Assembly (NCBI GenBank): GCA_000002445.1
Contig: AL929603.2
Span: 928,001-992,000, forward strand
DNA length: 64,000 nucleotides
DNA from: Trypanosoma brucei
Taxonomy: Eukaryota
Direction: 5' to 3'
Shown here: in pieces, positions 9,139-28,334 of the stretch
Numbering within the stretch: position 1 is the stretch's first letter
Layout: the number at the start of each line of letters is the position of its first letter
Notes under the pieces: generated by a model
Told to the model about the DNA's origin: nothing
Seen by the model: only the letters and a program-made list of their open reading frames with translations
Databases searched by the model: none
Made by a program: the position numbers and the translations under genes

Positions 9139-11175
9139 TGGATGTGTTCAAATAATGATAATGATAATAGTAACAATGGTAATAGTAATAAAAATATTGT
9201 TATGATTACAATTATGATGCTTATAGGTGAATATAGTTTATGTATATATACACACGTCTGGCGTCTATTTACTGTCCAAAAGGTATTAGACATTGGAACC
9301 TGAAGGTGCGTTCGTAGTTTCATTTTTTTTCTCTTTCGTTTTTTGTTTTGTTTTTGTTCTACTCCTTGCTTTTACCTTCTCAGTTTTTACCTCTATACAT
9401 CATTTTCATGATATATGTATATTTATTTATGTCCTTGTGAAAGAAAAAATGAGCGACCAACTTCCACGACATCAACGAAGAACTAGGAGTGGAGGTAAAG
9501 GATAAATGGGGATAAATGTATTCCTTCCTCTTGTATATTATATTATTTTTGTTATTATTGTGTGCTGTATTAATCAGTGAAAGCTGCAGTTATTTGGTGC
9601 TAACAACGGTGGAGACAAAGACTTTCGCGTCGATGTGACCCGCAGGATTGAGGAAAGGACCAATAAGCGAGGATCAATAAAGGGGGAAAATAAAGGCGAT
9701 AAGCGGATCATCTCTTTTTTTTTTTCTTAAGGTCATTGCTATCATTTCTTTATGGGGAATCACTCACAACTGTAAATGTAATCGCGTACAAGTAATTGCA
9801 TTAGTTCATATACCTTTGTTTTTTTCTATACTTAACGTGTGCAGTAATGCACACATCTGTGCGGACTGACGTTTCTCCGTGGGTAACCGAATTACGGAAG
9901 GCAATTCAAATAAATGAGGGAGTTGGACTCTTTGGAGTTTGCTACACGGTGCCTGTTTGCTTTTTTATTCCTTTTTAACTTAGTGATGCTAATTAGTGTA
10001 CAAGTCACGAAGGAAAGTAAAATGCAGCCGGCACATATGGATATTATATATATATATATATATATATTCATATTACTTTATACGTCTTAATATATGATTG
10101 TTCTTTACTTTCCAGAAGTTGGGTGATCCAAAATGGGAGTGTGTTCACAAAAGGGGGGGGGGAAAAACGTAGTTCCAGAAGAGGAACAGCACAACTCATC
10201 TCATCAGGTCGGTAGGAAGAGGGTTTGCGTATATTATATATATATATATATAAATGTTTATTTCCATACACAAATGTTCTAATATATGTAAATAAATATA
10301 TTTATGTGTGTACACCTGTACAGATAATTGAGTTCTCCCACTCTGGCCGGACATCATTTTTGTTCCACAACTACACTACAGTTTTGTTCATATTCTTTCT
10401 ATTTGCAAAGGATAGTCGATCCAATATAGAATCAGTTGAATTATAGCTTATAAAGTCTAAATTTGCGTTCCCTGCTACACTTACCGTTTAGGACGACGGT
10501 AGTGCATGTGAAGAGACAAGTGTGTGTGTAAGAAAAGTACAACAATTTAAGCATCTGTGAAACAAATAGGAACCCGTCCTGGTTGTCCATCTACCATTGA
10601 AAAATTGGAATGACACATTTACAACAATTCACAAAGAAATCATCAACGCCTCACACCAGCAAAGAGTCAACATATAAGAACACAACAATTATATCAACTA
10701 GGGACAAGCTACCTTAAAAAAATTAAGAAAATAACGGAAGAGGGAAAAAAGCACAGCAACGCCGGACGAAAATTAATTTAAACAAGACAAAAAAGTTAAA
10801 GCAAGTCAACCATTCTTCACAGCAACTGTTAACGCGAAATAATATATTTCCAAAAAAAAAAGAAATCCAAAAAGCGCAAAAGAGAGTAAAAGAATATTAA
10901 AGATGTGCCATCACAACGATAACTACAAAAAAAAGATCGAAAGTACGAATTTGCTTTGCACTGTCGATTCGTTTCTATGACGGTATGCTTTATGTTATCA
11001 TTGCTGTGCAGCAGATCTTATGACAAGTGTTTATTGTAATTGTGGTGTTGTGTGATGCAGCGGTAGATTGGACGTGTGTGTACACTTGCAGCAGTGCCTC
11101 GCACAAATCGTATCTCCTCCCGGGACTTGTGCATGCAAGTTCCCCAATTTTTAACCCGTGGCCTTGTCACCCGTT

Positions 11176-11262
11176 ACGCTGTGTCTGCTTTTCGTTTGTT
11201 TTGTCTCTTTCTCCCAAATTCCTTTTTGCTTCTACCTTCTGTTTATTGATGCGTGTGATAGT
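11176..11262 (+). promoter_or_regulatory. Polypyrimidine tract / probable spliced-leader trans-splice acceptor region upstream of array copy 1 (the same element recurs in every unit)
   Basis: A long C/T-rich run ('ctgtgtctgcttttcgtttgttttgtctctttctcccaaattcctttttgcttctaccttctgtttattg') followed by AG dinucleotides ~120 nt upstream of the ATG. This is the standard kinetoplastid mRNA processing signal. The exact acceptor site cannot be determined from sequence. Confidence 0.4.
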
Positions 11263-11384
11263 GTTTTCCGCTATCGGGACCAGAAGACCATAAGCAAGGT
11301 AACATCTGAGGCCAACCCAATTGCCATCATTTTCTTTGTCGTGAATTGTGAAGCAAACCTTTACCAAGCGTTATTTGAATAGCG

Positions 11385-12977
11385 GTGTACACGATGTTTT
11401 TGAAGGAGGGAAACAGTGAAATGCGGTTGAGCGGAGCTACGTTCTTGAAGGGCGCTGTTGATGATTTCAATGCATGTGAGTCCCCTGTTTTATCATCCGG
11501 AAGCAGTTTGGTTCTTACAAGTCCTGCTCTGAGCACCTCAGACACGTGCCGATCTGCGATGCGTGAAACCATCCCTTCCGTTTGTGCTGGCGCAGGCCTC
11601 AGCAGTCGCTGCTCAACTGATTGCACTGTGCTGAAGTGTGTGAACCCGCTGCATGTTAAGTTCCAGGAGCCGTCAGGGTTGTCAGGGGCTGATTCAGTGG
11701 ACTCGTTTGACTCGTTGGGTGACCTTTCCGAGTTGCATGAGGAACATCAACATGTTTCTTCTGTTGCCTCTGAAAAGCCTTTGACCCTTCACGATGTGCC
11801 GGAATCCGTCCTGTATGGTGCCATTCCATACCTTTCCCTTCCAGACGTCATTGCCTTATCACGGACATGTAAGAAGTTTCACAAACTGGTGCAGGGATAC
11901 TTTGCAGTGAATGAGCATGGCGTGATGAGCATCCCCGCCTTTGACACCCGCAGCTTCATGCAGTACCGTCCAGAGAGGAAACCTCCGGTAACGAAGGCGT
12001 CATCTATGGAACCCGCAACGAAAGCTTCGGACGTGAAACCCATCCGTCTGTTTTTTGGCCAGCAACGACGGGACCCACACCCCTCAGCTCTACGGCGTCT
12101 GCTGCGCTTCATTGCACCTGACCTTGTGATTGCTCACATGGAGGCTCACACGAACCCAGTTAACGGTCGTGGCAAAGGCTGCGCGTGGGTGTTCGCCCTG
12201 TCACAATTGGATGCGGAGCGACTGTTACGACTCAGTGGGCGTATCTTCCTTGACATAAATTCTAATGGTGAGGAGGTATACCTGTTCGCTCCCCCTAACT
12301 GCCGAGAGTGGTTGAATGAGCACGCGGAGTGTGCAGTCGCTTCCGCAGTTCGTCCAAGTCACTTGCCACGACAGCCGATGGTTGTGGAAGCCCCCAGGAA
12401 GTCGAGTGCCAAAGTGGAGAAGGGGTTGGAACAATGTGTGCGTCCCCATCCACAACATCGCGGTGTTACGGAGCAGCAGGCACCCGTCGCGGCGGCCCAG
12501 CAGATGCCCGACTCTGTGGAACCATTGGTACGAGTTGGGTCTCCACAGGATGAGGGCCTGCAGCAGCAGGAGCGGCCGTCCGAGGCGTGGACGACCAGCA
12601 ATCATTCGCAAGGCGACTCAACACACGGAAGGCGCAGGTCAGGGGAGGCTCTGCAGTCGGGTGAGTCCACACCTGAGCGTTTGCAAGCAAGGCGCCGCCC
12701 ATGGTTGGTTGCGGCGGATGCTTCAGCCACTCAGCGTGCCAGGGAACTTCGGTTTTGCAGCAATTCCTCAACTTCTCTTCATCATGAAATGTGGGGATTC
12801 CACCCGGGAGCACGCCTTGGCTCTGGGGTAGGCGGTGACAGATTTATTGCGTGTCCCGAGACGACAACACGCACTGTGCCCCACAACGTGTACACAAGCA
12901 CTATATGGACAGGCCCTAGGCGGTTCCGGCACGACCCGTACGTGTACGGCCCACTGTGCGTACTAGCGGCATCTTAG
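11385..12977 (+). CDS. CFB1: Cyclin F-box protein CFB1-like, array copy 1 (530 aa; F-box-like motif, RRM-like core, C-terminal RHDPY motif)
   Basis: Read from sequence:
- F-box-like 'LTLHDVPESVLYGAIPYLSLPDVIALSRTCKKFHKLV'.
- RRM-like beta1 'IRLFFGQQ' and RNP1-like 'GRGKGCAWVF'.
- C-terminal 'RFRHDPYVYGPL'.
This copy has the N-terminal variant T18/F27 and 'NHSQGD' (the other copies have NHLQGD). The CFB1 name comes from the known T. brucei chr1 locus organisation, recalled from memory. Confidence 0.8.
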   Translation: MYTMFLKEGNSEMRLSGATFLKGAVDDFNACESPVLSSGSSLVLTSPALSTSDTCRSAMRETIPSVCAGAGLSSRCSTDCTVLKCVNPLHVKFQEPSGLSGADSVDSFDSLGDLSELHEEHQHVSSVASEKPLTLHDVPESVLYGAIPYLSLPDVIALSRTCKKFHKLVQGYFAVNEHGVMSIPAFDTRSFMQYRPERKPPVTKASSMEPATKASDVKPIRLFFGQQRRDPHPSALRRLLRFIAPDLVIAHMEAHTNPVNGRGKGCAWVFALSQLDAERLLRLSGRIFLDINSNGEEVYLFAPPNCREWLNEHAECAVASAVRPSHLPRQPMVVEAPRKSSAKVEKGLEQCVRPHPQHRGVTEQQAPVAAAQQMPDSVEPLVRVGSPQDEGLQQQERPSEAWTTSNHSQGDSTHGRRRSGEALQSGESTPERLQARRRPWLVAADASATQRARELRFCSNSSTSLHHEMWGFHPGARLGSGVGGDRFIACPETTTRTVPHNVYTSTIWTGPRRFRHDPYVYGPLCVLAAS

Positions 12978-13840
12978 CGGTCCAACTGAGTGGTGAGCAC
13001 TCCATCGAGTCTGTGTGGTGATGCTGTGGACGGCGTGTCCCCACTGGTTGGACTGTAGTTTCTTCCCTCCCTTTTTTTATATTACGTTATGTTTTTTTTT
13101 TTTCATTTTCCACTCCCTTTCTTTGCCGTTTGCACTTTGCTCGCTTGCATTAAGGATGTCTTGGGGGTCTCTGGACCGAGTGCTGTAAGGAGGAGGGGGC
13201 AATCCTTCCCTATACAAATTACCACATATACTCATTTACACTTATACACATATACGCTTTCTATCAATCCCCACTATTTATATATACCGATTCAATTATA
13301 TGACCATGGAAAAAACATATATACAACTTCCTCCGTATGTAACAGCTTCCCCCGGTACGGCACATAGACCGTCACGGGCCTCCCATTGACATAACTTGTG
13401 CAAGACTCCTGTTCCCTGCTAATTGCAGGGAAGAGACGGCTAATTGGAACTACACCTTCCTCACCCTCATTGTTTTCATTGTTTTCTTTTGTATTTCTAT
13501 TAACCTAAGATAATTTCACTCGCTGTACTTTCTTCCCTCCCTACATCTATATGTTCCCTTATATAACTTTTATACACATGTTTTTTCCTCTCTTTTTCAT
13601 CCTATACAAACATATAAGCATACCTATATACACGTATATACATACATATATATGTTTGTTTTTATATGCCGTGACTTTGTTTCTTTTTTCCCCTTTTTAT
13701 CTCTTTTTATCCCTTTCTTTCTTTTTTTACTTTTTCATTTTGAATGCCCTTATGTAAGTAAATGCTTCTTACTAATAGAGGATTGTCCTTGGCAATTTCT
13801 CTCTTATCATTTTATTTTCCTCTCCCTTGTTCTTTTCGTT

Positions 13841-13921
13841 TTATATCATTTTTCATTTCGTTTCATTTTATATCATTTTTCATTTCGTTTCATTTTATAT
13901 CATTTTTCATTTCGTTTCATT
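13841..13921. repeat. 27-nt minisatellite (ttatatcatttttcatttcgtttcatt) x3 in the inter-copy spacer (long-type unit)
   Basis: Three exact head-to-tail copies, counted base by base. Short-type units carry only one copy (16966-16992 and 26287-26313). A second ~28-nt motif 'tactattttattttactttYgtttcatt' x2 follows at 13922-13977. Confidence 0.9.
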
Positions 13922-13993
13922 TACTATTTTATTTTACTTTCGTTTCATTTACTATTTTATTTTACTTTTGTTTCTATTTTTGTTTCCGCTGCT

Positions 13994-14512: not shown

Positions 14513-16105
14513 GTGTACACGATGTTTTTGAAGGAGGGAAACAGTGAAATGCGGTTGAGCGGAGCAGCGTTCTTGAAGGGCGCTGTTGATGATATCAATG
14601 CATGTGAGTCCCCTGTTTTATCATCCGGAAGCAGTTTGGTTCTTACAAGTCCTGCTCTGAGCACCTCAGACACGTGCCGATCTGCGATGCGTGAAACCAT
14701 CCCTTCCGTTTGTGCTGGCGCAGGCCTCAGCAGTCGCTGCTCAACTGATTGCACTGTGCTGAAGTGTGTGAACCCGCTGCATGTTAAGTTCCAGGAGCCG
14801 TCAGGGTTGTCAGGGGCTGATTCAGTGGACTCGTTTGACTCGTTGGGTGACCTTTCCGAGTTGCATGAGGAACATCAACATGTTTCTTCTGTTGCCTCTG
14901 AAAAGCCTTTGACCCTTCACGATGTGCCGGAATCCGTCCTGTATGGTGCCATTCCATACCTTTCCCTTCCAGACGTCATTGCCTTATCACGGACATGTAA
15001 GAAGTTTCACAAACTGGTGCAGGGATACTTTGCAGTGAATGAGCATGGCGTGATGAGCATCCCCGCCTTTGACACCCGCAGCTTCATGCAGTACCGTCCA
15101 GAGAGGAAACCTCCGGTAACGAAGGCGTCATCTATGGAACCCGCAACGAAAGCTTCGGACGTGAAACCCATCCGTCTGTTTTTTGGCCAGCAACGACGGG
15201 ACCCACACCCCTCAGCTCTACGGCGTCTGCTGCGTTTCATTGCACCTGACCTTGTGATTGCTCACATGGAGGCTCACACGAACCCGGTTAACGGTCGTGG
15301 CAAAGGCTGCGCGTGGGTGTTCGCCCTGTCACAATTGGATGCGGAGCGACTGTTACGACTCAGTGGGCGTATCTTCCTTGACATAAATTCTAATGGTGAG
15401 GAGGTATACCTGTTCGCTCCCCCTAACTGCCGAGAGTGGTTGAATGAGCACGCGGAGTGTGCAGTCGCTTCCGCAGTTCGTCCAAGTCACTTGCCACGAC
15501 AGCCGATGGTTGTGGAAGCCCCCAGGAAGTCGAGTGCCAAAGTGGAGAAGGGGTTGGAACAATGTGTGCGTCCCCATCCACAACATCGCGGTGTTACGGA
15601 GCAGCAGGCACCCGTCGCGGCGGCCCAGCAGATGCCCGACTCTGTGGAACCATTGGTACGAGTTGGGTCTCCACAGGATGAGGGCCTGCAGCAGCAGGAG
15701 CGGCCGTCCGAGGCGTGGACGACCAGCAATCATTTGCAAGGCGACTCAACACACGGAAGGCGCAGGTCAGGGGAGGCTCTGCAGTCGGGTGAGTCCACAC
15801 CTGAGCGTTTGCAAGCAAGGCGCCGCCCATGGTTGGTTGCGGCGGATGCTTCAGCCACTCAGCGTGCCAGGGAGCTTCGGTTTTGCAGCAATTCCTCAAC
15901 TTCTCTTCATCATGAAATGTGGGGATTCCACCCGGGAGCACGCCTTGGCTCTGGGGTAGGCGGTGACAGATTTATTGCGTGTCCCGAGACGACAACACGC
16001 ACTGTGCCCCACAACGTGTACACAAGCACTATATGGACAGGCCCTAGGCGGTTCCGGCACGACCCGTACGTGTACGGCCCACTGTGCGTACTAGCGGCAT
16101 CTTAG
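14513..16105 (+). CDS. CFB1: CFB1-like F-box protein, array copy 2 (530 aa)
   Basis: Identical to copy 1 except the N-terminal variant A18/I27 ('GAAFLKGAVDDINACE') and NHLQGD. Short-type spacer downstream. Confidence 0.8.
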   Translation: MYTMFLKEGNSEMRLSGAAFLKGAVDDINACESPVLSSGSSLVLTSPALSTSDTCRSAMRETIPSVCAGAGLSSRCSTDCTVLKCVNPLHVKFQEPSGLSGADSVDSFDSLGDLSELHEEHQHVSSVASEKPLTLHDVPESVLYGAIPYLSLPDVIALSRTCKKFHKLVQGYFAVNEHGVMSIPAFDTRSFMQYRPERKPPVTKASSMEPATKASDVKPIRLFFGQQRRDPHPSALRRLLRFIAPDLVIAHMEAHTNPVNGRGKGCAWVFALSQLDAERLLRLSGRIFLDINSNGEEVYLFAPPNCREWLNEHAECAVASAVRPSHLPRQPMVVEAPRKSSAKVEKGLEQCVRPHPQHRGVTEQQAPVAAAQQMPDSVEPLVRVGSPQDEGLQQQERPSEAWTTSNHLQGDSTHGRRRSGEALQSGESTPERLQARRRPWLVAADASATQRARELRFCSNSSTSLHHEMWGFHPGARLGSGVGGDRFIACPETTTRTVPHNVYTSTIWTGPRRFRHDPYVYGPLCVLAAS

Positions 16106-17575: not shown

Positions 17576-19168
17576 GTGTACACGATGTTTTTGAAGGAGG
17601 GAAACAGTGAAATGCGGTTGAGCGGAGCTACGTTCTTGAAGGGCGCTGTTGATGATTTCAATGCATGTGAGTCCCCTGTTTTATCATCCGGAAGCAGTTT
17701 GGTTCTCACAAGTCCTGCTCTGAGCACCTCAGACACGTGCCGATCTGCGATGCGTGAAACCATCCCTTCCGTTTGTGCTGGCGCAGGCCTCAGCAGTCGC
17801 TGCTCAACTGATTGCACTGTGCTGAAGTGTGTGAACCCGCTGCATGTTAAGTTCCAGGAGCCGTCAGGGTTGTCAGGGGCTGATTCAGTGGACTCGTTTG
17901 ACTCGTTGGGTGACCTTTCCGAGTTGCATGAGGAACATCAACATGTTTCTTCTGTTGCCTCTGAAAAGCCTTTGACCCTTCACGATGTGCCGGAATCCGT
18001 CCTGTATGGTGCCATTCCATACCTTTCCCTTCCAGACGTCATTGCCTTATCACGGACATGTAAGAAGTTTCACAAACTGGTGCAGGGATACTTTGCAGTG
18101 AATGAGCATGGCGTGATGAGCATCCCCGCCTTTGACACCCGCAGCTTCATGCAGTACCGTCCAGAGAGGAAACCTCCGGTAACGAAGGCGTCATCTATGG
18201 AACCCGCAACGAAAGCTTCGGACGTGAAACCCATCCGTCTGTTTTTTGGCCAGCAACGACGGGACCCACACCCCTCAGCTCTACGGCGTCTGCTGCGCTT
18301 CATTGCACCTGACCTTGTGATTGCTCACATGGAGGCTCACACGAACCCAGTTAACGGTCGTGGCAAAGGCTGCGCGTGGGTGTTCGCCCTGTCACAATTG
18401 GATGCGGAGCGACTGTTACGACTCAGTGGGCGTATCTTCCTTGACATAAATTCTAATGGTGAGGAGGTATACCTGTTCGCTCCCCCTAACTGCCGAGAGT
18501 GGTTGAATGAGCACGCGGAGTGTGCAGTCGCTTCTGCAGTTCGTCCAAGTCACTTGCCACGACAGCCGATGGTTGTGGAAGCCCCCAGGAAGTCGAGTGC
18601 CAAAGTGGAGAAGGGGTTGGAACAATGTGTGCGTCCCCATCCACAACATCGCGGTGTTACGGAGCAGCAGGCACCCGTCGCGGCGGCCCAGCAGATGCCC
18701 GACTCTGTGGAACCATTGGTACGAGTTGGGTCTCCACAGGATGAGGGCCTGCAGCAGCAGGAGCGGCCGTCCGAGGCGTGGACGACCAGCAATCATTTGC
18801 AAGGCGACTCAACACACGGAAGGCGCAGGTCAGGGGAGGCTCTGCAGTCGGGTGAGTCCACACCTGAGCGTTTGCAAGCAAGGCGCCGCCCATGGTTGGT
18901 TGCGGCGGATGCTTCAGCCACTCAGCGTGCCAGGGAGCTTCGGTTTTGCAGCAATTCCTCAACTTCTCTTCATCATGAAATGTGGGGATTCCACCCGGGA
19001 GCACGCCTTGGCTCTGGGGTAGGCGGTGACAGATTTATTGCGTGTCCCGAGACGACAACACGCACTGTGCCCCACAACGTGTACACAAGCACTATATGGA
19101 CAGGCCCTAGGCGGTTCCGGCACGACCCGTACGTGTACGGCCCACTGTGCGTACTAGCGGCATCTTAG
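17576..19168 (+). CDS. CFB1: CFB1-like F-box protein, array copy 3 (530 aa)
   Basis: Variant T18/F27 and NHLQGD. Long-type spacer. Confidence 0.8.
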   Translation: MYTMFLKEGNSEMRLSGATFLKGAVDDFNACESPVLSSGSSLVLTSPALSTSDTCRSAMRETIPSVCAGAGLSSRCSTDCTVLKCVNPLHVKFQEPSGLSGADSVDSFDSLGDLSELHEEHQHVSSVASEKPLTLHDVPESVLYGAIPYLSLPDVIALSRTCKKFHKLVQGYFAVNEHGVMSIPAFDTRSFMQYRPERKPPVTKASSMEPATKASDVKPIRLFFGQQRRDPHPSALRRLLRFIAPDLVIAHMEAHTNPVNGRGKGCAWVFALSQLDAERLLRLSGRIFLDINSNGEEVYLFAPPNCREWLNEHAECAVASAVRPSHLPRQPMVVEAPRKSSAKVEKGLEQCVRPHPQHRGVTEQQAPVAAAQQMPDSVEPLVRVGSPQDEGLQQQERPSEAWTTSNHLQGDSTHGRRRSGEALQSGESTPERLQARRRPWLVAADASATQRARELRFCSNSSTSLHHEMWGFHPGARLGSGVGGDRFIACPETTTRTVPHNVYTSTIWTGPRRFRHDPYVYGPLCVLAAS

Positions 19169-20702: not shown

Positions 20703-22295
20703 GTGTACACGATGTTTTTGAAGGAGGGAAACAGTGAAATGCGGTTGAGCGGAGCAGCGTTCTTGAAGGGCGCTGTTGATGATATCAATGCATGTGAGTC
20801 CCCTGTTTTATCATCCGGAAGCAGTTTGGTTCTTACAAGTCCTGCTCTGAGCACCTCAGACACGTGCCGATCTGCGATGCGTGAAACCATCCCTTCCGTT
20901 TGTGCTGGCGCAGGCCTCAGCAGTCGCTGCTCAACTGATTGCACTGTGCTGAAGTGTGTGAACCCGCTGCATGTTAAGTTCCAGGAGCCGTCAGGGTTGT
21001 CAGGGGCTGATTCAGTGGACTCGTTTGACTCGTTGGGTGACCTTTCCGAGTTGCATGAGGAACATCAACATGTTTCTTCTGTTGCCTCTGAAAAGCCTTT
21101 GACCCTTCACGATGTGCCGGAATCCGTCCTGTATGGTGCCATTCCATACCTTTCCCTTCCAGACGTCATTGCCTTATCACGGACATGTAAGAAGTTTCAC
21201 AAACTGGTGCAGGGATACTTTGCAGTGAATGAGCATGGCGTGATGAGCATCCCCGCCTTTGACACCCGCAGCTTCATGCAGTACCGTCCGGAGAGGAAAC
21301 CTCCGGTAACGAAGGCGTCATCTATGGAACCCGCAACGAAAGCTTCGGACGTGAAGCCCATCCGTCTGTTTTTTGGCCAGCAACGACGGGACCCACACCC
21401 CTCAGCTCTACGGCGTCTGCTGCGCTTCATTGCACCTGACCTTGTGATTGCTCACATGGAGGCTCACACGAACCCAGTTAACGGTCGTGGCAAAGGCTGC
21501 GCGTGGGTGTTCGCCCTGTCACAATTGGATGCGGAGCGACTGTTACGACTCAGTGGGCGTATCTTCCTTGACATAAATTCTAATGGTGAGGAGGTATACC
21601 TGTTCGCTCCCCCTAACTGCCGAGAGTGGTTGAATGAGCACGCGGAGTGTGCAGTCGCTTCCGCAGTTCGTCCAAGTCACTTGCCACGACAGCCGATGGT
21701 TGTGGAAGCCCCCAGGAAGTCGAGTGCCAAAGTGGAGAAGGGGTTGGAACAATGTGTGCGTCCCCATCCACAACATCGCGGTGTTACGGAGCAGCAGGCA
21801 CCCGTCGCGGCGGCCCAGCAGATGCCCGACTCTGTGGAACCATTGGTACGAGTTGGGTCTCCACAGGATGAGGGCCTGCAGCAGCAGGAGCGGCCGTCCG
21901 AGGCGTGGACGACCAGCAATCATTTGCAAGGCGACTCAACACACGGAAGGCGCAGGTCAGGGGAGGCTCTGCAGTCGGGTGAGTCCACACCTGAGCGTTT
22001 GCAAGCAAGGCGCCGCCCATGGTTGGTTGCGGCGGATGCTTCAGCCACTCAGCGTGCCAGGGAGCTTCGGTTTTGCAGCAATTCCTCAACTTCTCTTCAT
22101 CATGAAATGTGGGGATTCCACCCGGGAGCACGCCTTGGCTCTGGGGTAGGCGGTGACAGATTTATTGCGTGTCCCGAGACGACAACACGCACTGTGCCCC
22201 ACAACGTGTACACAAGCACTATATGGACAGGCCCTAGGCGGTTCCGGCACGACCCGTACGTGTACGGCCCACTGTGCGTACTAGCGGCATCTTAG
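20703..22295 (+). CDS. CFB1: CFB1-like F-box protein, array copy 4 (530 aa)
   Basis: Variant A18/I27 and NHLQGD. Long-type spacer. One synonymous-looking difference from the other copies ('ccggagagg' and 'gtgaagccc' around 21290-21360). Confidence 0.8.
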   Translation: MYTMFLKEGNSEMRLSGAAFLKGAVDDINACESPVLSSGSSLVLTSPALSTSDTCRSAMRETIPSVCAGAGLSSRCSTDCTVLKCVNPLHVKFQEPSGLSGADSVDSFDSLGDLSELHEEHQHVSSVASEKPLTLHDVPESVLYGAIPYLSLPDVIALSRTCKKFHKLVQGYFAVNEHGVMSIPAFDTRSFMQYRPERKPPVTKASSMEPATKASDVKPIRLFFGQQRRDPHPSALRRLLRFIAPDLVIAHMEAHTNPVNGRGKGCAWVFALSQLDAERLLRLSGRIFLDINSNGEEVYLFAPPNCREWLNEHAECAVASAVRPSHLPRQPMVVEAPRKSSAKVEKGLEQCVRPHPQHRGVTEQQAPVAAAQQMPDSVEPLVRVGSPQDEGLQQQERPSEAWTTSNHLQGDSTHGRRRSGEALQSGESTPERLQARRRPWLVAADASATQRARELRFCSNSSTSLHHEMWGFHPGARLGSGVGGDRFIACPETTTRTVPHNVYTSTIWTGPRRFRHDPYVYGPLCVLAAS

Positions 22296-23831
22296 CGGTC
22301 CAACTGAGTGGTGAGCACTCCATCGAGTCTGTGTGGTGATGCTGTGGACGGCGTGTCCCCACTGGTTGGACTGTAGTTTCTTCCCTCCCTTTTTTTATAT
22401 TACGTTATGTTTTTTTTTTTCATTTTCCACTCCCTTTCTTTGCCGTTTGCACTTTGCTCGCTTGCATTAAGGATGTCTTGGGGGTCTCTGGACCGAGTGC
22501 TGTAAGGAGGAGGGGGCAATCCTTCCCTATACAAATTACCACATATACTCATTTACACTTATACACATATACGCTTTCTATCAATCCCCACTATTTATAT
22601 ATACCGATTCAATTATATGACCATGGAAAAAACATATATACAACTTCCTCCGTATGTAACAGCTTCCCCCGGTACGGCACATAGACCGTCACGGGCCTCC
22701 CATTGACATAACTTGTGCAAGACTCCTGTTCCCTGCTAATTGCAGGGAAGAGACGGCTAATTGGAACTACACCTTCCTCACCCTCATTGTTTTCATTGTT
22801 TTCTTTTGTATTTCTATTAACCTAAGATAATTTCACTCGCTGTACTTTCTTCCCTCCCTACATCTATATGTTCCCTTATATAACTTTTATACACATGTTT
22901 TTTCCTCTCTTTTTCATCCTATACAAACATATAAGCATACCTATATACACGTATATACATACATATATATGTTTGTTTTTATATGCCGTGACTTTGTTTC
23001 TTTTTTCCCCTTTTTATCTCTTTTTATCCCTTTCTTTCTTTTTTTACTTTTTCATTTTGAATGCCCTTATGTAAGTAAATGCTTCTTACTAATAGAGGAT
23101 TGTCCTTGGCAATTTCTCTCTTATCATTTTATTTTCCTCTCCCTTGTTCTTTTCGTTTTATATCATTTTTCATTTCGTTTCATTTTATATCATTTTTCAT
23201 TTCGTTTCATTTTATATCATTTTTCATTTCGTTTCATTTACTATTTTATTTTACTTTCGTTTCATTTACTATTTTATTTTACTTTTGTTTCTATTTTTGT
23301 TTCCGCTGCTCACACACACACACACACACACACCCTGCTCTTCCAGTTGCATGACATCATTACACACTAATTGCAGTGGTGCTCCATTTGCTGTTTGCTG
23401 AAACGTTTGATTTATTTCTTGTCCCTTTCCTCAAGCATCTCTTCGTTTAGGCAACACACCATCTTTATGACAAGTGTTTATTGTAATTGTGGTGTTGTGT
23501 GATGCAGCGGTAGATTGGACGTGTGTGTACACTTGCAGCAGTGCCTCGCACAAATCGTATCTCCTCCCGGGACTTGTGCATGCAAGTTCCCCAATTTTTA
23601 ACCCGTGGCCTTGTCACCCGTTACGCTGTGTCTGCTTTTCGTTTGTTTTGTCTCTTTCTCCCAAATTCCTTTTTGCTTCTACCTTCTGTTTATTGATGCG
23701 TGTGATAGTGTTTTCCGCTATCGGGACCAGAAGACCATAAGCAAGGTAACATCTGAGGCCAACCCAATTGCCATCATTTTCTTTGTCGTGAATTGTGAAG
23801 CAAACCTTTACCAAGCGTTATTTGAATAGCG

Positions 23832-25424
23832 GTGTACACGATGTTTTTGAAGGAGGGAAACAGTGAAATGCGGTTGAGCGGAGCTACGTTCTTGAAGGGC
23901 GCTGTTGATGATTTCAATGCATGTGAGTCCCCTGTTTTATCATCCGGAAGCAGTTTGGTTCTTACAAGTCCTGCTCTGAGCACCTCAGACACGTGCCGAT
24001 CTGCGATGCGTGAAACCATCCCTTCCGTTTGTGCTGGCGCAGGCCTCAGCAGTCGCTGCTCAACTGATTGCACTGTGCTGAAGTGTGTGAACCCGCTGCA
24101 TGTTAAGTTCCAGGAGCCGTCAGGGTTGTCAGGGGCTGATTCAGTGGACTCGTTTGACTCGTTGGGTGACCTTTCCGAGTTGCATGAGGAACATCAACAT
24201 GTTTCTTCTGTTGCCTCTGAAAAGCCTTTGACCCTTCACGATGTGCCGGAATCCGTCCTGTATGGTGCCATTCCATACCTTTCCCTTCCAGACGTCATTG
24301 CCTTATCACGGACATGTAAGAAGTTTCACAAACTGGTGCAGGGATACTTTGCAGTGAATGAGCATGGCGTGATGAGCATCCCCGCCTTTGACACCCGCAG
24401 CTTCATGCAGTACCGTCCAGAGAGGAAACCTCCGGTAACGAAGGCGTCATCTATGGAACCCGCAACGAAAGCTTCGGACGTGAAACCCATCCGTCTGTTT
24501 TTTGGCCAGCAACGACGGGACCCACACCCCTCAGCTCTACGGCGTCTGCTGCGCTTCATTGCACCTGACCTTGTGATTGCTCACATGGAGGCTCACACGA
24601 ACCCAGTTAACGGTCGTGGCAAAGGCTGCGCGTGGGTGTTCGCCCTGTCACAATTGGATGCGGAGCGACTGTTACGACTCAGTGGGCGTATCTTCCTTGA
24701 CATAAATTCTAATGGTGAGGAGGTATACCTGTTCGCTCCCCCTAACTGCCGAGAGTGGTTGAATGAGCACGCGGAGTGTGCAGTCGCTTCCGCAGTTCGT
24801 CCAAGTCACTTGCCACGACAGCCGATGGTTGTGGAAGCCCCCAGGAAGTCGAGTGCCAAAGTGGAGAAGGGGTTGGAACAATGTGTGCGTCCCCATCCAC
24901 AACATCGCGGTGTTACGGAGCAGCAGGCACCCGTCGCGGCGGCCCAGCAGATGCCCGACTCTGTGGAACCATTGGTACGAGTTGGGTCTCCACAGGATGA
25001 GGGCCTGCAGCAGCAGGAGCGGCCGTCCGAGGCGTGGACGACCAGCAATCATTTGCAAGGCGACTCAACACACGGAAGGCGCAGGTCAGGGGAGGCTCTG
25101 CAGTCGGGTGAGTCCACACCTGAGCGTTTGCAAGCAAGGCGCCGCCCATGGTTGGTTGCGGCGGATGCTTCAGCCACTCAGCGTGCCAGGGAACTTCGGT
25201 TTTGCAGCAATTCCTCAACTTCTCTTCATCATGAAATGTGGGGATTCCACCCGGGAGCACGCCTTGGCTCTGGGGTAGGCGGTGACAGATTTATTGCGTG
25301 TCCCGAGACGACAACACGCACTGTGCCCCACAACGTGTACACAAGCACTATATGGACAGGCCCTAGGCGGTTCCGGCACGACCCGTACGTGTACGGCCCA
25401 CTGTGCGTACTAGCGGCATCTTAG
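23832..25424 (+). CDS. CFB1: CFB1-like F-box protein, array copy 5 (530 aa)
   Basis: Variant T18/F27 and NHLQGD. Short-type spacer. Confidence 0.8.
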   Translation: MYTMFLKEGNSEMRLSGATFLKGAVDDFNACESPVLSSGSSLVLTSPALSTSDTCRSAMRETIPSVCAGAGLSSRCSTDCTVLKCVNPLHVKFQEPSGLSGADSVDSFDSLGDLSELHEEHQHVSSVASEKPLTLHDVPESVLYGAIPYLSLPDVIALSRTCKKFHKLVQGYFAVNEHGVMSIPAFDTRSFMQYRPERKPPVTKASSMEPATKASDVKPIRLFFGQQRRDPHPSALRRLLRFIAPDLVIAHMEAHTNPVNGRGKGCAWVFALSQLDAERLLRLSGRIFLDINSNGEEVYLFAPPNCREWLNEHAECAVASAVRPSHLPRQPMVVEAPRKSSAKVEKGLEQCVRPHPQHRGVTEQQAPVAAAQQMPDSVEPLVRVGSPQDEGLQQQERPSEAWTTSNHLQGDSTHGRRRSGEALQSGESTPERLQARRRPWLVAADASATQRARELRFCSNSSTSLHHEMWGFHPGARLGSGVGGDRFIACPETTTRTVPHNVYTSTIWTGPRRFRHDPYVYGPLCVLAAS

Positions 25425-26894
25425 CGGTCCAACTGAGTGGTGAGCACTCCATCGAGTCTGTGTGGTGATGCTGTGGACGGCGTGTCCCCACTGGTTGGAC
25501 TGTAGTTTCTTCCCTCCCTTTTTTTATATTACGTTATGTTTTTTTTTTTCATTTTCCACTCCCTTTCTTTGCCGTTTGCACTTTGCTCGCTTGCATTAAG
25601 GATGTCTTGGGGGTCTCTGGACCGAGTGCTGTAAGGAGGAGGGGGCAATCCTTCCCTATACAAATTACCACATATACTCATTTACACTTATACACATATA
25701 CGCTTTCTATCAATCCCCACTATTTATATATACCGATTCAATTATATGACCATGGAAAAAACATATATACAACTTCCTCCGTATGTAACAGCTTCCCCCG
25801 GTACGGCACATAGACCGTCACGGGCCTCCCATTGACATAACTTGTGCAAGACTCCTGTTCCCTGCTAATTGCAGGGAAGAGACGGCTAATTGGAACTACA
25901 CCTTCCTCACCCTCATTGTTTTCATTGTTTTCTTTTGTATTTCTATTAACCTAAGATAATTTCACTCGCTGTACTTTCTTCCCTCCCTACATCTATATGT
26001 TCCCTTATATAACTTTTATACACATGTTTTTTCCTCTCTTTTTCATCCTATACAAACATATAAGCATATCTATATACACGTATATACATACATATATATG
26101 TTTGTTTTTATATGCCGTGACTTTGTTTCTTTTTCCCCCTTTTTATCTCTTTTTATCCCTTTCTTTCTTTTTTTACTTTTTCATTTTGAATGCCCTTATG
26201 TAAGTAAACGCTTCTTACTAATAGAGGATTGTCCTTGGCAATTTCTCTCTTATCATTTTATTTTCCTCTCCCTTGTTCTTTTCGTTTTATATCATTTTTC
26301 ATTTCGTTTCATTTACTATTTTATTTTACTTTTGTTTCATTTACTATTTTATTTTACTTTTGTTTCTATTTTTGTTTCCGCTGCTCACACACACACCCTG
26401 CTCTTCCAGTTGCATGACATCATTACACACTAATTGCAGTGGTGCTCCATTTGCTGTTTGCTGAAACGTTTGATTTATTTCTTGTCCCTTTCCTCAAGCA
26501 TCTCTTCGTTTAGGCAACACACCATCTTTATGACAAGTGTTTATTGTAATTGTGGTGTTGTGTGATGCAGCGGTAGATTGGACGTGTGTGTACACTTGCA
26601 GCAGTGCCTCGCACAAATCGTATCTCCTCCCGGGACTTGTGCATGCAAGTTCCCCAATTTTTAACCCGTGGCCTTGTCACCCGTTACGCTGTGTCTGCTT
26701 TTCGTTTGTTTTGTCTCTTTCTCCCAAATTCCTTTTTGCTTCTACCTTCTGTTTATTGATGCGTGTGATAGTGTTTTCCGCTATCGGAACCAGAAGACCA
26801 TAAGCAAGGTAACATCTGAGGCCAACCCAATTGCCATCATTTTCTTTGTCGTGAATTGTGAAGCAAACCTCTACCAAGCGTTATTTGAATAGCG

Positions 26895-28334
26895 GTGTAC
26901 ACGATGTCCTTGGAGGAGGGAAGCAGTGAAATGCGGTTGAGCGGAGCAGCGTTCTTGAAGGGCGCTGTTGATGATTTCCATGCGGGTAAATCTTCTGCTT
27001 TGTCATCTGGTAGCAGTCCTGCGCTTACTGTGTCTGTTTTTAGTACGCCGGCGTTCGGTTGTTCGACATTTGGTAACTCATCGCCGGTTTGTGGCGGCCA
27101 TGAAGCCAACTACGAAGCTGTTGCGCTCCGTGATGCCCCCTTGAGCAGTCGAGGTATCGTTGCTTGGGATAGGATGAAGTGTGAGAGCTCACTTTTTGTG
27201 AAACTTCAGGCGTCTTCAGGGTTGTCCGGAACCGACTCAGAGGACATAGCTAACCCGTTAGTGGATCTTTCGGATGCTTGCGGAACAGATGCCCTTTCCG
27301 AGTTGCGTGAGGAACATCAACATATTTCTTCTGTTGCCTCTGAAAAGCCTTTGACCCTTCACGATGTGCCGGAATCCGTCCTGTATGGTGCCATTCCATA
27401 CCTTTCCCTTCCAGACGTCATTGCCTTATCACGGACATGTAAGAAGTTTCACAAACTGGTGCAGGGATACTTTGCAGTGAATGAGCATGGCGTGATGAGC
27501 ATCCCCGCCTTTGACACCCGCAGCTTCATGCAGTACCGTCCAGAGAGGAAACCTCCGGTAACGAAGGTCACAGCCGCGGGACCCGCCCCTAAAATTCCTG
27601 GTGTGAAACCCATCCGTCTGTTTTTTGGCCAGCAACGACGGGACGTTTATCCCTCAGCTCTACGGCGTCTGCTGCGCTTCATTGCACCTGACCTTGTTAT
27701 CACTCACATGGAGGCTCACGTGAATGAGGCAACTGGTCGGGGCAAAGGCTGCGCATGGGTTATTGTTCCTTCAGTGTTGGAGGCGAAACGACTGTTACGA
27801 CTCAGTGGGCGTATCTTCCTTGACATAAATTCTAATGGTGAGGAGGTATACCTGTTCGCTCCCCCTAACTGCCGAGAGTGGTTAAGTGAGTACGCCGACT
27901 ACGTTGTCTCCTCAACAACTCGTGCAAGCCATCTTCCGTACTTACCAATGGTTGTTGGAGTACCGAAGAAGGAGTGTATATATGTACGTGAGCTTTTGGC
28001 ACCTTATATTTATGATCCCAATCGCGGTGACTGTCCGCCATATGCCGACGCGGTTTCGGAGTTTAAGGGCTTATTGGAGGATCATGCGTTACTTCCAGTA
28101 TCTTCCGCCGTATCGGGCATTATTCCTCCTTTTGCTTCTGTTCCTCCTATGGTGCAGACTTGCATGTTTTCTTCCTCTTTTGATCGTAGAGAATACTTTG
28201 AAGCCCCCAACGTTTATACCAGCACGGTGTGGACTGGCTTCAGTCGGTACCGCCATGATCCGTATGTGTTTGATCCACTACGGGAGCCAACGAACATGTT
28301 ACCGCTGCATGAAGTGGATTACGCTGAGATGTAG
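26895..28334 (+). CDS. CFB2: CFB2-like divergent F-box paralog (479 aa): mosaic of CFB1-identical blocks and unique sequence, with C-terminal 'RYRHDPYVF' MKT1-binding-type motif
   Basis: The ~370 nt upstream (26528-26894) is near-identical to the CFB1 upstream region. The protein N-terminus is partly related ('MYTMSLEEGSSEMRLSGAAFLKGAVDDFH'). Central blocks 27296-27565 and 27600-27890 are near-identical to CFB1 (F-box and RRM-like region). The N- and C-terminal thirds are unique, and so is the downstream flank. Confidence 0.75.
   Translation: MYTMSLEEGSSEMRLSGAAFLKGAVDDFHAGKSSALSSGSSPALTVSVFSTPAFGCSTFGNSSPVCGGHEANYEAVALRDAPLSSRGIVAWDRMKCESSLFVKLQASSGLSGTDSEDIANPLVDLSDACGTDALSELREEHQHISSVASEKPLTLHDVPESVLYGAIPYLSLPDVIALSRTCKKFHKLVQGYFAVNEHGVMSIPAFDTRSFMQYRPERKPPVTKVTAAGPAPKIPGVKPIRLFFGQQRRDVYPSALRRLLRFIAPDLVITHMEAHVNEATGRGKGCAWVIVPSVLEAKRLLRLSGRIFLDINSNGEEVYLFAPPNCREWLSEYADYVVSSTTRASHLPYLPMVVGVPKKECIYVRELLAPYIYDPNRGDCPPYADAVSEFKGLLEDHALLPVSSAVSGIIPPFASVPPMVQTCMFSSSFDRREYFEAPNVYTSTVWTGFSRYRHDPYVFDPLREPTNMLPLHEVDYAEM

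What the first reader, a model, noticed from the sequence alone, without database searches (positions are those of the whole stretch)
11012..28334. Five-copy CFB1-like tandem array capped by a mosaic CFB2-like paralog: concerted evolution with a sharp break at the last unit
Five 530-aa genes are virtually identical at nucleotide level across ~3.1 kb units. The sixth unit keeps the identical ~370-nt upstream region and two internal coding blocks (27296-27565 and 27600-27890). Its N-terminal third, C-terminal third and whole 3' flank are unique. This is the pattern expected if gene conversion homogenises the array but is blocked, or selected against, in the terminal copy, which has acquired a different 3' UTR and regulation. 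From memory, it matches the published T. brucei chr1 CFB1 x5 / CFB2 locus, in which CFB2 is bloodstream-form specific and binds VSG mRNA. The array itself is therefore probably not novel. The exact conversion boundaries and the copy-number state are the sequence-level observations.
Basis: partly seen in the sequence, partly recalled or inferred. Interest (0 to 1): 0.55.

Follow-up and report, generated by a model that had tools for sequence, protein, structure and literature searches.

The report
Known trypanosome CFB1×5 / CFB2 gene array
This is the already published Trypanosoma brucei chromosome 1 locus with five near-identical CFB1 genes followed by CFB2 (the protein that stabilises the parasite's surface-coat mRNA); the only additions here are a fine map of where the two gene types still exchange sequence and evidence that their shared central region has an RNA-binding (RRM) fold.

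Summary
There are five 527-aa genes (ATGs at 11394, 14522, 17585, 20712, 23841) in 3063–3129-nt units that differ at about 24 alignment positions. A sixth, 476-aa gene (26904–28334) shares the upstream 370 nt (368–369/370 identical). Exact protein look-ups and published coordinates place the window at T. b. brucei TREU927 chr1 928001–992000. The array is Tb927.1.4540–4650, that is CFB1×5 + CFB2, and was already catalogued as a concerted array (Jackson 2007).

Gene conversion, not purifying selection, explains the mosaic:
- Block A (27294–27567, containing the F-box) has dS = 0 between CFB1 and CFB2, but dS ≈ 1.65 against T. vivax and >1 in adjacent segments.
- Block B is 88% identical, not identical. 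It consists of exact runs of 42, 47 and 95 nt separated by old patches (dS 1.2–1.45).

The boundary is leaky and differs between strains:
- T. b. equiperdum CFB2 carries a private CFB1-derived tract of 15–58 nt.
- TREU927 CFB1 copies 2 and 4 carry CFB2 bases.
- DAL972 holds a CFB2::CFB1 chimera, which may be an assembly artefact.

Five substitutions fixed across all five copies between strains show concerted evolution directly.

Side finding: block B encodes an RRM fold (pLDDT 94; all top PDB matches are RRMs).

Novelty: already known. Interest is low.

The parts
11015..27017 (+). Continuous tandem-array homology: five full CFB1 units plus the first 494 nt of a sixth unit (370-nt upstream region plus the first 123 nt of the CFB2 ORF)
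   Evidence: Self-BLAST and unit alignment. The left edge is at 11015–11018.
11394..12977 (+). CFB1 copy 1 (527 aa; exact match to CAJ16660.1)
14522..16105 (+). CFB1 copy 2 (527 aa; protein identical to copy 4; CAJ16662/16666)
17585..19168 (+). CFB1 copy 3 (527 aa; protein identical to copy 5; CAJ16664/16669)
20712..22295 (+). CFB1 copy 4
23841..25424 (+). CFB1 copy 5. The MKT1-binding motif PRRFRHDPY is encoded near its 3' end (HDPY at 25377–25388).
   Evidence: the motif was tested in PMC3985637
13830..13979 (+). 27-nt minisatellite in the CFB1 spacer. Its length makes 'long' units (1, 3, 4) and 'short' units (2, 5). The equivalent sites are near 16990, 20020, 23150 and 26310.
26525..26907 (+). 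Upstream region of CFB2, homogenised with the array (368–369/370 identical). It presumably holds the common 5' UTR and trans-splice acceptor region (inferred).
26904..28334 (+). CFB2 (476 aa; exact match to CAJ16671.1 / Q4GYB3 = Tb927.1.4650)
26908..27017 (+). CFB2 codons 2–41: partly homogenised (86% identical to CFB1, dS 0.38). It contains the AG dinucleotide (26948–26949) that is also found in CFB1 copies 2 and 4.
27018..27293 (+). CFB2-specific N-terminal segment (56% identical to CFB1, dS about 1.5, with indels)
27294..27567 (+). Block A: recent CFB1/CFB2 conversion tract (2 differences; 243-nt exact run at 27325–27567; dS = 0). The F-box lies at 27363–27464.
27568..27602 (+). Diverged linker patch (dS about 1.2, dN 0.62)
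27603..27890 (+). Block B: a mosaic of exact runs (27603–27644, 27651–27697, 27789–27883) and old patches (27698–27788, dS 1.45). It encodes the core of an RRM fold (β1 at about 27612 to β5 at about 27857).
27703..27760 (+). Outer bounds of the lineage-specific CFB1-to-CFB2 conversion tract seen in T. b. equiperdum. Nine changed sites lie at 27720–27734 (VNEAT to TNPVN, the β2–β3 loop of the RRM). In this window the segment is CFB2-type.
27891..28334 (+). CFB2-specific C-terminal third. Only the MKT1-binding motif region (HDPY at 28254–28265) is conserved, and only at protein level (pS 0.79).
28335..34701 (+). Unique AT-rich (29% GC) stretch downstream of CFB2, with no ORF of 200 codons or more and rich in purine and pyrimidine tracts. 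It is most likely the long CFB2 3' UTR plus spacer.
   Evidence: T. b. equiperdum has the same 6.4-kb gap. PMC11405848 lists CFB2 among transcripts with >2-kb tract-rich 3' UTRs.

Best explanation
**Identity.** The region is the CFB locus of Trypanosoma brucei brucei TREU927 chromosome 1 (Tb927.1.4540–4650). It holds five tandem CFB1 genes and, at the 3' end of the array, the older paralogue CFB2. All lie on one strand of a polycistronic unit.

**Homogenisation of the CFB1 units.** The five CFB1 units are kept nearly identical by unequal exchange or gene conversion that is faster than the divergence between subspecies.

**How CFB2 takes part.**
- CFB2 shares the array's upstream spacer, and homogenisation stops almost exactly at its start codon.
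- Downstream, CFB2 has an unrelated, long, AT-rich 3' flank. The terminal gene therefore has homology on one side only.
- Inside the CFB2 coding region, short conversion tracts of about 15–270 nt still pass between CFB1 and CFB2 wherever sequence similarity is high enough. These are the F-box block and the core strands and helices of the central domain.
- The intervening segments remain anciently diverged (dS > 1). They are the N-terminal segment (codons 42–134), the linker, the loops and α2 helix of the central domain, and the C-terminal third.

**Inferred, not shown.** Heteroduplex rejection at diverged patches, together with selection for CFB2-specific function, maintains the mosaic. The CFB2-specific 3' UTR gives it its own developmental regulation.

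**Protein function, from the literature.** Both proteins have an F-box (SKP1 binding), a central conserved domain and a C-terminal HDPY motif that recruits MKT1. CFB2 binds and stabilises VSG mRNA. Here the central domain is shown to have an RRM fold, which is the most likely RNA-binding module (inferred).
For: **Identity**
- Exact protein matches to TREU927 entries.
- The 16,941-nt span equals the published coordinates.
- The literature describes the locus.

**Concerted evolution within CFB1**
- Pairwise CDS differences are 1–7 of 1593 nt.
- CDS variants group copies 2+4, but spacer variants group 2+5. All four combinations occur, so the units have exchanged sequence.
- Five substitutions are fixed in all five copies between the TREU927 and T. 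b. equiperdum arrays, with no shared polymorphism. Two of them (11999, 12170) are TREU927-derived and did not reach CFB2.

**Conversion between CFB1 and CFB2**
- Block A has 0 synonymous differences over 63 synonymous sites, while flanking segments have dS of 1.0–1.8.
- The same block has dS 1.65 and dN 0.46 against T. vivax, so there is no nucleotide-level constraint.
- The C-terminal HDPY region is conserved in protein but has pS 0.79. This is an internal control for what purifying selection alone looks like.
- Permutation tests gave 0 of 20,000, also when restricted to codons with identical amino acids.
- Patches within block B have dS 1.2–1.45.

**Ongoing and bidirectional exchange**
- T. 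b. equiperdum CFB2 differs from TREU927 and DAL972 CFB2 at 9 clustered sites, all matching the CFB1 state.
- CFB1 copies 2 and 4 carry the CFB2 AG at 11438–11439.

**Copy number**
- A separate assembly of T. b. equiperdum (GCA_003543875.1), with its own SNPs and only short units, also has 5 CFB1 + CFB2.

**3' flank**
- It is unrelated to the CFB1 flank, 29% GC and tract-rich. The long CFB2 3' UTR is in the literature.

**Domains**
- F-box against the SKP2 F-box, E = 0.0011.
- RRM: the domain profile hits only RRM chains in the PDB (CELF1, 4e-6). The AF2 domain model has pLDDT 94.2, and the top 50 Foldseek PDB matches are all RRMs.
Against: - The published survey of T. brucei arrays lists no discrete gene-conversion event for this array in its Table S1, although its tree test favoured concerted evolution. 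The tracts reported here rest on my own tests.
- The direction and age of the block A event cannot be determined, because both paralogues are identical there.
- The roles of mismatch-dependent heteroduplex rejection and of selection in holding the boundary are inferences.
- Copy number is known to change in culture, so 'five' describes these assemblies and is not a constant.
- I could not verify whether the T. b. equiperdum assembly was scaffolded on TREU927.
- The Pfam F-box scores are below the gathering threshold (18.6 against 24.3 bits).
- RNA binding by the RRM-like domain has not been tested.
Confidence: 0.9

Rival explanations
1. The blocks shared by CFB1 and CFB2 are conserved only because purifying selection acts on the F-box and the central domain. 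On this reading there is no gene conversion between the two gene types.
For: The blocks coincide with functional domains (F-box; RRM fold). The central domain is conserved in protein sequence across T. congolense and T. vivax.
Against: - Selection on the protein does not remove synonymous differences. Block A has dS = 0 over 63 synonymous sites, against dS 1.65 versus T. vivax and >1 in neighbouring segments.
- Block A is less conserved across species (dN 0.46) than block B (dN about 0.2), yet it is the block that is identical between the paralogues.
- The HDPY region shows what pure protein-level constraint looks like (pS 0.79).
- The T. b. equiperdum tract changes four amino acids to the CFB1 state in one stroke.
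Confidence: 0.03
2. The structure is an assembly artefact: a collapsed or expanded repeat, or a CFB2 that is chimeric because reads were misjoined through the shared block.
For: - Tandem repeats in TREU927 are known to have been collapsed elsewhere, for example HSP70.
- The DAL972 assembly of this locus has N gaps, a CFB2::CFB1 chimera and CFB1 copies placed after CFB2.
- Copy number changes in culture.
Against: - The five units are individually distinguishable by SNPs and by long or short spacers.
- The same 5+1 layout and the same CFB2 mosaic occur in T. b. equiperdum, with its own SNPs and no gaps. The same CFB2 mosaic also occurs in DAL972.
- Published RNA-seq coverage after CFB2 RNAi shows reads shared between CFB1 and CFB2 only over part of the coding region.
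Confidence: 0.05
3. CFB2 is a recent duplicate of a CFB1 unit. Its divergent segments arose by very fast positive selection, or by import from a third and distant locus, rather than CFB2 being an old paralogue patched by CFB1.
For: - The upstream region and block A are virtually identical, as expected for a young duplicate.
Against: - Divergent segments have saturated synonymous divergence (dS 1.2–1.8). Positive selection does not create that.
- No third close CFB paralogue of T. brucei appeared in either protein search.
- In several divergent segments CFB2, not CFB1, keeps the residues seen in T. congolense and T. vivax (for example GSSPALT and VPSxAEAKRL), while CFB1 keeps them elsewhere (RDPHPS, LPRQPMVVE). 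This fits two old lineages.
Confidence: 0.05

Closest known systems
T. brucei CFB1/CFB2 locus, Tb927.1.4540–4650 (Benz & Clayton 2007, cited; Melo do Nascimento et al. 2021, PMC8051951)
   Same: It is the same sequence. All six proteins match exactly and the coordinates correspond. [quoted passage not shown]
   Different: Nothing differs in the sequence. Added here are nucleotide-level tract boundaries, dS per segment, comparison between subspecies, and the RRM assignment of the 'conserved central region'. The papers held in the library call CFB2 an 'unconventional RNA-binding protein' and do not mention an RRM or gene conversion.
Tandem arrays with 'mixed dynamics' in T. brucei (Jackson 2007, BMC Evol Biol 7:54, PMC1855330)
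   Same: That paper describes arrays in which most copies evolve in concert while an atypical copy, often at an end of the array, diverges together with a remodelled spacer or UTR. This array is its number 6 (Ds 0.2068, Dn 0.1227; the concerted topology was preferred).
   Different: Its Table S1 records no discrete conversion event for array 6. Here several tracts are resolved, including strain-specific ones. Unlike the paper's example Tb105a, where both UTRs of the divergent copy are unrelated to the others, the CFB2 5' spacer is fully homogenised and only its 3' flank is unique.
CELF/Bruno-type RRM domains (for example CELF1 RRM1/2: PDB 2dhs, 3nmr)
   Same: The central domain of CFB1/CFB2 has RNP2-like R(L/V)F(F/V)GQ and RNP1-like GRGKGCAWV motifs that align with CELF kMFVGQ and skGCcFV. 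The fold is βαββαβ.
   Different: Similarity is too weak for Pfam RRM_1 (no hit at E ≤ 1). The domain carries a C-terminal extension (extra β-strand, a long helix and an RPxxLPRQP motif). It occurs in a distinct family of more than 100 clusters, many with an upstream CxxC motif. RNA binding through it is untested.

Membership tests
T. brucei CFB1/CFB2 locus (Tb927.1.4540–4650) | Protein sequences identical to the reference CFB1 and CFB2 entries | tested here: met
   Exact-sequence look-up: CFB2 = CAJ16671.1/XP_001219158.1/Q4GYB3; CFB1 = CAJ16660, 16662/16666 and 16664/16669, all on the 1,064,672-bp TREU927 record.
T. brucei CFB1/CFB2 locus (Tb927.1.4540–4650) | Genomic position and layout: six same-strand copies on chr1 at 939394–956334, with CDS lengths of 1431 and about 1582–1584 nt | tested here: met
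   Window 11394–28334 is 16,941 nt, the same span as the published coordinates. The last copy is 1431 nt. The neighbours (RING-finger gene upstream, PRMT downstream) are the same in T. b. equiperdum, and PRMT is also downstream in T. vivax.
F-box proteins | Sequence match to the F-box profile | tested here: inconclusive
   Pfam F-box-like scores 18.6 and 17.8 bits against a gathering threshold of 24.3; F-box scores 16.8 and 16.0 against 20.5. The family profile matches the SKP2 F-box in the PDB at E = 0.0011.
F-box proteins | Binding to SKP1 | not testable with these tools
   Reported for CFB2 by yeast two-hybrid, and lost on mutation of F-box residues (PMC8051951).
MKT1-recruiting proteins with the H(N/D)PY motif | Presence of the HDPY motif near the C-terminus | tested here: met
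   CFB1 has PRRFRHDPY and CFB2 has SRYRHDPY. D-P-Y is invariant across T. brucei, T. congolense and T. vivax. The CFB nonapeptide bound MKT1 in two-hybrid assays (PMC3985637).
Concertedly evolving tandem array | Substitutions fixed in all copies of one lineage and absent from all copies of a sister lineage | tested here: met
   Five fixed differences and no shared polymorphism between the five TREU927 copies and the five T. b. equiperdum copies.
Inter-paralogue gene conversion (CFB1↔CFB2) | Tracts with near-zero synonymous divergence embedded in saturated divergence, longer than chance allows | tested here: met
   Block A has dS = 0 against flanks with dS ≥ 1. The 243-nt exact run was reached in 0 of 20,000 shuffles. 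The cross-species control gives dS 1.65.
Inter-paralogue gene conversion (CFB1↔CFB2) | Lineage-specific tracts in which one paralogue acquires the other's states | tested here: met
   T. b. equiperdum CFB2 carries 9 clustered CFB1-state sites at 27720–27734. TREU927 CFB1 copies 2 and 4 carry the CFB2 AG.
RRM (RNA recognition motif) domains | βαββαβ fold with RNP1 and RNP2 motifs on β3 and β1 | tested here: met
   AF2 domain model with pLDDT 94.2 and pTM 0.86. The top 50 Foldseek PDB matches are all RRMs, with TM-score up to 0.78 normalised on the target. The sequence profile hits only RRM chains, best CELF1 at E = 4e-6.
RRM (RNA recognition motif) domains | Match to the curated Pfam RRM_1 model | tested here: not met
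   No RRM family was reported for CFB1 or CFB2 at E ≤ 1, or for ten homologues at E ≤ 0.01.
RRM (RNA recognition motif) domains | RNA binding through the β-sheet surface | not testable with these tools
   CFB2 associates with VSG mRNA in vivo (PMC8051951), but the responsible domain has not been mapped in the papers held in the library.

The most novel reading that the evidence does not exclude
The 'unconventional' RNA-binding protein CFB2 may in fact bind RNA through a divergent RRM. This domain is the conserved central region, which is block B of the mosaic. Because CFB1 repeatedly overwrites the RRM core and the F-box of CFB2, the determinants that make CFB2 specific for VSG mRNA would be confined to the segments that resist conversion. 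These are the RRM loops and the end of β3/α2 (27645–27650, 27698–27788), the linker, the N-terminal segment 27018–27293 and the C-terminal third. The natural T. b. equiperdum variant, whose β2–β3 loop has been replaced by the CFB1 version, would already show that this loop is dispensable for specificity. The conversion map would then serve as a ready-made domain-swap guide for a key virulence regulator.
Probability: 0.35. Interest if true: 0.4.

Novelty: already known. Interest (0 to 1): 0.2.

Why it matters
CFB2 is essential for stabilising the VSG mRNA that underlies immune evasion by African trypanosomes, so its locus is of real biological interest. The locus, its copy structure, the partial sequence sharing with CFB1 and its concerted evolution are all already in the literature and in the reference annotation.

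This analysis adds three modest things:
- A segment-by-segment map showing which parts of CFB2 are still being overwritten by CFB1 and which are protected. This doubles as a guide to where CFB2-specific function must reside. It also warns that reads, RNAi fragments or peptides from 27294–27567 and from parts of 27603–27890 cannot distinguish the two genes.
- Direct evidence that the exchange is ongoing and differs between subspecies.
- A structural assignment of the conserved central region as an RRM fold, which offers a testable RNA-binding surface.

Tried and rejected
- **Rfam scan.** A scan of the whole window at gathering thresholds gave no hits, so there is no known structured RNA in the spacers or in the long CFB2 3' flank.
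- **Pfam.** It gave only sub-threshold F-box matches and no RRM for CFB1 or CFB2.
- **Word-indexed protein searches.** The searches with a single sequence and with a profile returned only six African-trypanosome clusters. The exhaustive HMMER search was needed to reach T. rangeli and the wider domain family.
- **Full-length AF2 model.** The CFB2 model built with a 5-sequence alignment was unusable (pLDDT 38). Only the domain model with 32 sequences was confident.
- **AlphaFold-database fold library.** It was unavailable, so I could not see how the public models of these proteins are described.
- **Benz & Clayton 2007.** The paper is not held in the library, so its original description of the locus could be used only through citing papers.
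- **Rejected explanations.** Purifying selection alone, assembly artefact and recent duplication with fast divergence were considered and rejected, for the reasons given under the rival explanations.
- **Downstream long genes.** I checked whether two long genes at 43903–47136 and 47844–50930 are paralogues. They are not (FAM91-like versus Vps39-like; BLASTP E = 1.9).

Full report
**1. The observation**

ORF listing and direct comparison confirm five ORFs of 530 codons at 11385, 14513, 17576, 20703 and 23832. The first ATG is at codon 4, giving 527 aa. Their coding sequences differ pairwise at only 1–7 of 1593 nt.

- Self-BLAST shows uninterrupted array homology from 11015 to 27017.
- Aligning the five units gives lengths of 3128, 3063, 3127, 3129 and 3063 nt. 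Only about 24 positions or indel blocks vary in 3130 columns.
- The 65-nt length difference lies in a 27-nt minisatellite in the spacer.
- The sixth gene (ATG 26904 to stop 28334, 476 aa) shares the 370 nt upstream of the ORF with the CFB1 copies at 368–369/370. The first CFB2-specific differences appear at 26908, the fifth nucleotide of the coding sequence.

- Block A (27294–27567) is indeed virtually identical (271/273, with a 243-nt exact run). Block B (27603–27890) is only 87.7% identical. It is a mosaic of exact runs of 42, 47 and 95 nt separated by diverged patches.
- The N-terminal third is not entirely unique. Codons 1–41 are 86% identical, and the C-terminus keeps a conserved motif at protein level.

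The 3' flanks of CFB1 and CFB2 are effectively unrelated; the best hit is 66 nt at 73%.

**2. What it is**

An exact-sequence look-up finds all six proteins in T. brucei brucei TREU927, on the 1,064,672-bp chromosome 1 record.

- The 476-aa protein is CAJ16671.1/XP_001219158.1/Q4GYB3.
- The 527-aa proteins are CAJ16660 (copy 1), CAJ16662 = CAJ16666 (copies 2 and 4) and CAJ16664 = CAJ16669 (copies 3 and 5).

A supplementary table of Jackson (2007, PMC1855330) lists array 6 as 'Tb927.1.4540-4650', chromosome 1, six copies, 1431–1582 nt, coordinates 939394–956334, F-box domain. That span is 16,941 nt, exactly the distance from 11394 to 28334 here. The window is therefore chr1 928001–992000.

Tb927.1.4650 is CFB2. 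The literature states the following:

- CFB2 lies downstream of several CFB1 genes.
- The two share some coding sequence but have different UTRs.
- CFB2 binds and stabilises VSG mRNA.

**3. Concerted evolution of the five CFB1 units**

Within TREU927, coding variants group copies 2 and 4, while spacer variants (several SNPs plus the deletions) group units 2 and 5. All four combinations occur, which requires exchange among units.

I fetched the orthologous locus from T. b. equiperdum (GCA_003543875.1; loci L001, L003, L004). It also has five CFB1 genes followed by CFB2, with no gaps, only 'short' units (3060–3064 nt) and its own SNPs.

Comparing the two arrays gives five substitutions fixed in all five copies of one strain against all five of the other. 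Eleven polymorphisms are private to TREU927, five are private to T. b. equiperdum, and none are shared. New mutations therefore spread through the array faster than the subspecies diverge. Two of the fixed differences (11999, 12170) are TREU927-derived states that reached all five CFB1 copies but not CFB2.

**4. Gene conversion between CFB1 and CFB2**

A codon-wise Nei–Gojobori analysis of CFB1 copy 5 against CFB2 gave these values:

| Segment | dS (or pS) |
|---|---|
| Codons 1–41 | 0.38 |
| N-terminal segment 27018–27293 | about 1.5 |
| Block A (91 codons, 63 synonymous sites) | 0 |
| Linker | about 1.0–1.2 |
| Block B overall | 0.29 |
| Internal patch 27698–27788 within block B | 1.45 |
| C-terminal variable region | about 1.8 |
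| HDPY region (conserved in protein) | pS 0.79 |

The HDPY region serves as an internal control. Purifying selection on the protein leaves synonymous sites saturated, whereas block A has none changed.

Against the T. vivax orthologue (L005), block A has dS 1.65 and dN 0.46. There is thus no nucleotide-level constraint, and block A is even less conserved across species than block B.

Shuffling tests never reproduce the observed identical runs (0 of 20,000). This holds also when only third positions, or only codons with identical amino acids, are used.

Block A and the three exact runs in block B are therefore conversion tracts laid over an old divergence.

**5. The boundary is leaky and strain-specific**

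- T. b. equiperdum CFB2 differs from both TREU927 and DAL972 CFB2 at nine clustered sites (27720–27734), each carrying the CFB1 state. The flanking diagnostic sites at 27702 and 27761 remain CFB2-type. This is a CFB1-to-CFB2 tract of 15–58 nt that changes VNEAT to TNPVN.
- In the other direction, TREU927 CFB1 copies 2 and 4 carry the CFB2-type AG at 11438–11439. All T. b. equiperdum and DAL972 CFB1 copies have TA there.
- The DAL972 assembly (L002) contains an in-frame hybrid with a CFB2 5' part and a CFB1 3' part. The switch lies inside block A, there is one nonsense codon, and the hybrid sits immediately upstream of CFB2. That is the product expected from one unequal crossover between CFB2 and the last CFB1. 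However, that assembly has N gaps in the array and places CFB1 copies after CFB2, so an assembly misjoin cannot be excluded.

**6. How it most likely works**

*Shown:* the array is homogenised up to the CFB2 start codon. CFB2 lacks array homology on its 3' side. Short tracts pass in both directions where identity is high, and the intervening segments are old.

*Inferred:* conversion or unequal exchange needs homology. The terminal gene is anchored on one side only, and diverged patches stop heteroduplex extension. Identical islands therefore stay identical and diverged islands stay diverged, with selection for CFB2-specific function acting on top.

The 6.4-kb stretch after CFB2 (28335–34701) is 29% GC, has no ORF of 200 codons or more, and has about four times the purine/pyrimidine-tract density of the gene-dense part of the window. 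The same gap is present in T. b. equiperdum. It fits the report that CFB2 belongs to a cohort of bloodstream-form up-translated transcripts with tract-rich 3' UTRs longer than 2 kb (PMC11405848). That the 3' flank is what gives CFB2 its distinct regulation is inference.

**7. Comparison with what is known**

The locus is the reference locus itself. The general pattern was described by Jackson (2007) as 'mixed dynamics': concerted copies plus an atypical duplicate accompanied by remodelled spacers. That study included this array, with Ds 0.2068 and Dn 0.1227, and rejected the orthologous topology in favour of the concerted one.

Its Table S1 lists no discrete conversion events for array 6. The eLife paper does not use the term gene conversion. 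The tract map and the comparison between subspecies are therefore incremental additions, not a new phenomenon. Amplification of the CFB1/CFB2 cluster in culture has been reported (PMC8459984), so copy number is not fixed.

**8. Side finding: the central conserved region is an RRM fold**

- An exhaustive profile search found 127 cluster representatives. Most match only profile positions of about 240–362, a domain of about 120 aa that also occurs outside CFB proteins. T. rangeli has a full-length orthologue.
- A 32-sequence domain alignment (A3) searched against PDB sequences hit 28 chains, all of them RRM proteins. The best were CELF1 RRM1/2 (E = 4e-6 and 7.8e-6), CELF2 (4.4e-5) and hnRNP A1 (about 0.03). 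The RNP2-like RvFlGQ and RNP1-like GkGCAwV motifs align with CELF kMFVGQ and skGCcFV.
- AF2 on this alignment gave pLDDT 94.2 and pTM 0.86, with β-α-β-β-α-β-β-α topology. The top 50 Foldseek matches in the PDB are all RRMs, including RBM39 RRM2, TIA-1 RRM2, CELF2, HuR and PABP.
- Pfam's RRM model does not detect the domain.
- The papers held in the library call CFB2 an 'unconventional RNA-binding protein' and do not link it to an RRM. I could not check public AlphaFold or InterPro annotation.

Within this domain the exact CFB1/CFB2 tracts cover β1/RNP2, α1, RNP1 and β4–β5. The CFB2-specific patches fall on the β1–α1 loop, the β2–β3 loop, the end of β3 and α2.

**9. Verdict**

The feature is the known CFB1×5/CFB2 locus of the T. 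brucei reference genome, so novelty is 'already known' and interest is low. The residual value lies in the conversion map, the evidence for ongoing bidirectional exchange, and the RRM assignment.

Noticed in passing
window 27579–27980 (CFB2 aa 226–359); equivalent in CFB1 copy 5 at 24456–24857: The 'conserved central region' of CFB1/CFB2 has an RRM fold with CELF-like RNP1 and RNP2 motifs. The AF2 domain model has pLDDT 94, all top PDB fold and sequence-profile matches are RRMs, and Pfam RRM_1 misses it. The papers held in the library describe CFB2 as an unconventional RNA-binding protein without naming a domain.
   Followed up: yes
proteins P0028–P0145, segments listed: The same RRM-like domain of about 120 aa (R-x-F-x-G-Q-L-R-K … G-R-G-K-G-C-A-W-V … R-P-x-x-L-P-R-Q-P) occurs in more than 100 other protein clusters. 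Most are unnamed and come from metagenome or transcriptome assemblies. Many have a CxxC…C zinc-ribbon-like motif just upstream and no F-box. The family has no Pfam model that matched.
   Followed up: partly
L002:6897–8540 (T. b. gambiense DAL972, FN554964.1): A hybrid gene with a CFB2 5' part and a CFB1 3' part. The switch lies inside block A, the reading frame is kept, and there is one nonsense codon (283). It sits directly upstream of CFB2. This is the expected product of one unequal crossover, but the assembly has N gaps here and places CFB1 copies downstream of CFB2, so it may be a misassembly.
   Followed up: partly
L005:1–16164 (T. vivax, SOPI01000705.1): The syntenic T. vivax locus (PRMT gene downstream, as in the window) carries at least eight tandem 543-aa CFB genes at a 2266-nt period. 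Divergence follows a gradient along the array: copies 6–7 differ from copies 1–4 at 10–12 nt. No strongly divergent terminal copy is seen in this stretch. A 492-aa variant (P0005) lies on a separate short contig.
   Followed up: partly
window 13830–13979, 20020–20169, 23147–23296 (long form); 16991–17052, 26310–26371 (short form): A 27-nt minisatellite in the CFB1 spacer exists in two length states within one array (units 1, 3, 4 against units 2, 5). All five T. b. equiperdum units have the short state.
   Followed up: partly
window 28335–34701: A 6.4-kb stretch downstream of CFB2 with 27–35% GC, no ORF of 200 codons or more and no Rfam match. It is dense in poly-purine and poly-pyrimidine tracts and simple repeats. 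The only ORF of at least 150 aa there is a minus-strand one at 28636–29169, which is probably spurious.
   Followed up: partly
window 12316–12831 and the equivalent position in each CFB1 copy; 27886–28353 in CFB2: Each CFB1 gene contains a 171-codon ORF in another frame on the same strand, and CFB2 has a 155-codon one. They are repeated only because the genes are repeated and are probably not genes. Not examined further.
   Followed up: no
window 43903–47136 and 47844–50930: These neighbouring genes have the CDS lengths (3180 and 3087 nt) and the start coordinate of the entry 'Tb927.1.4740-4790, 2 copies' in the Jackson 2007 supplementary array list. They are unrelated proteins, one FAM91-like and one Vps39-like (BLASTP E = 1.9). 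The listed end coordinate does not match either gene.
   Followed up: partly
whole window: All ORFs of at least 200 aa except one overlapping minus-strand ORF (40579–41319) are on the + strand. Cumulative GC skew rises across most of the window but dips across the CFB array (about 12–28 kb), where GC skew and AT skew turn negative.
   Followed up: no
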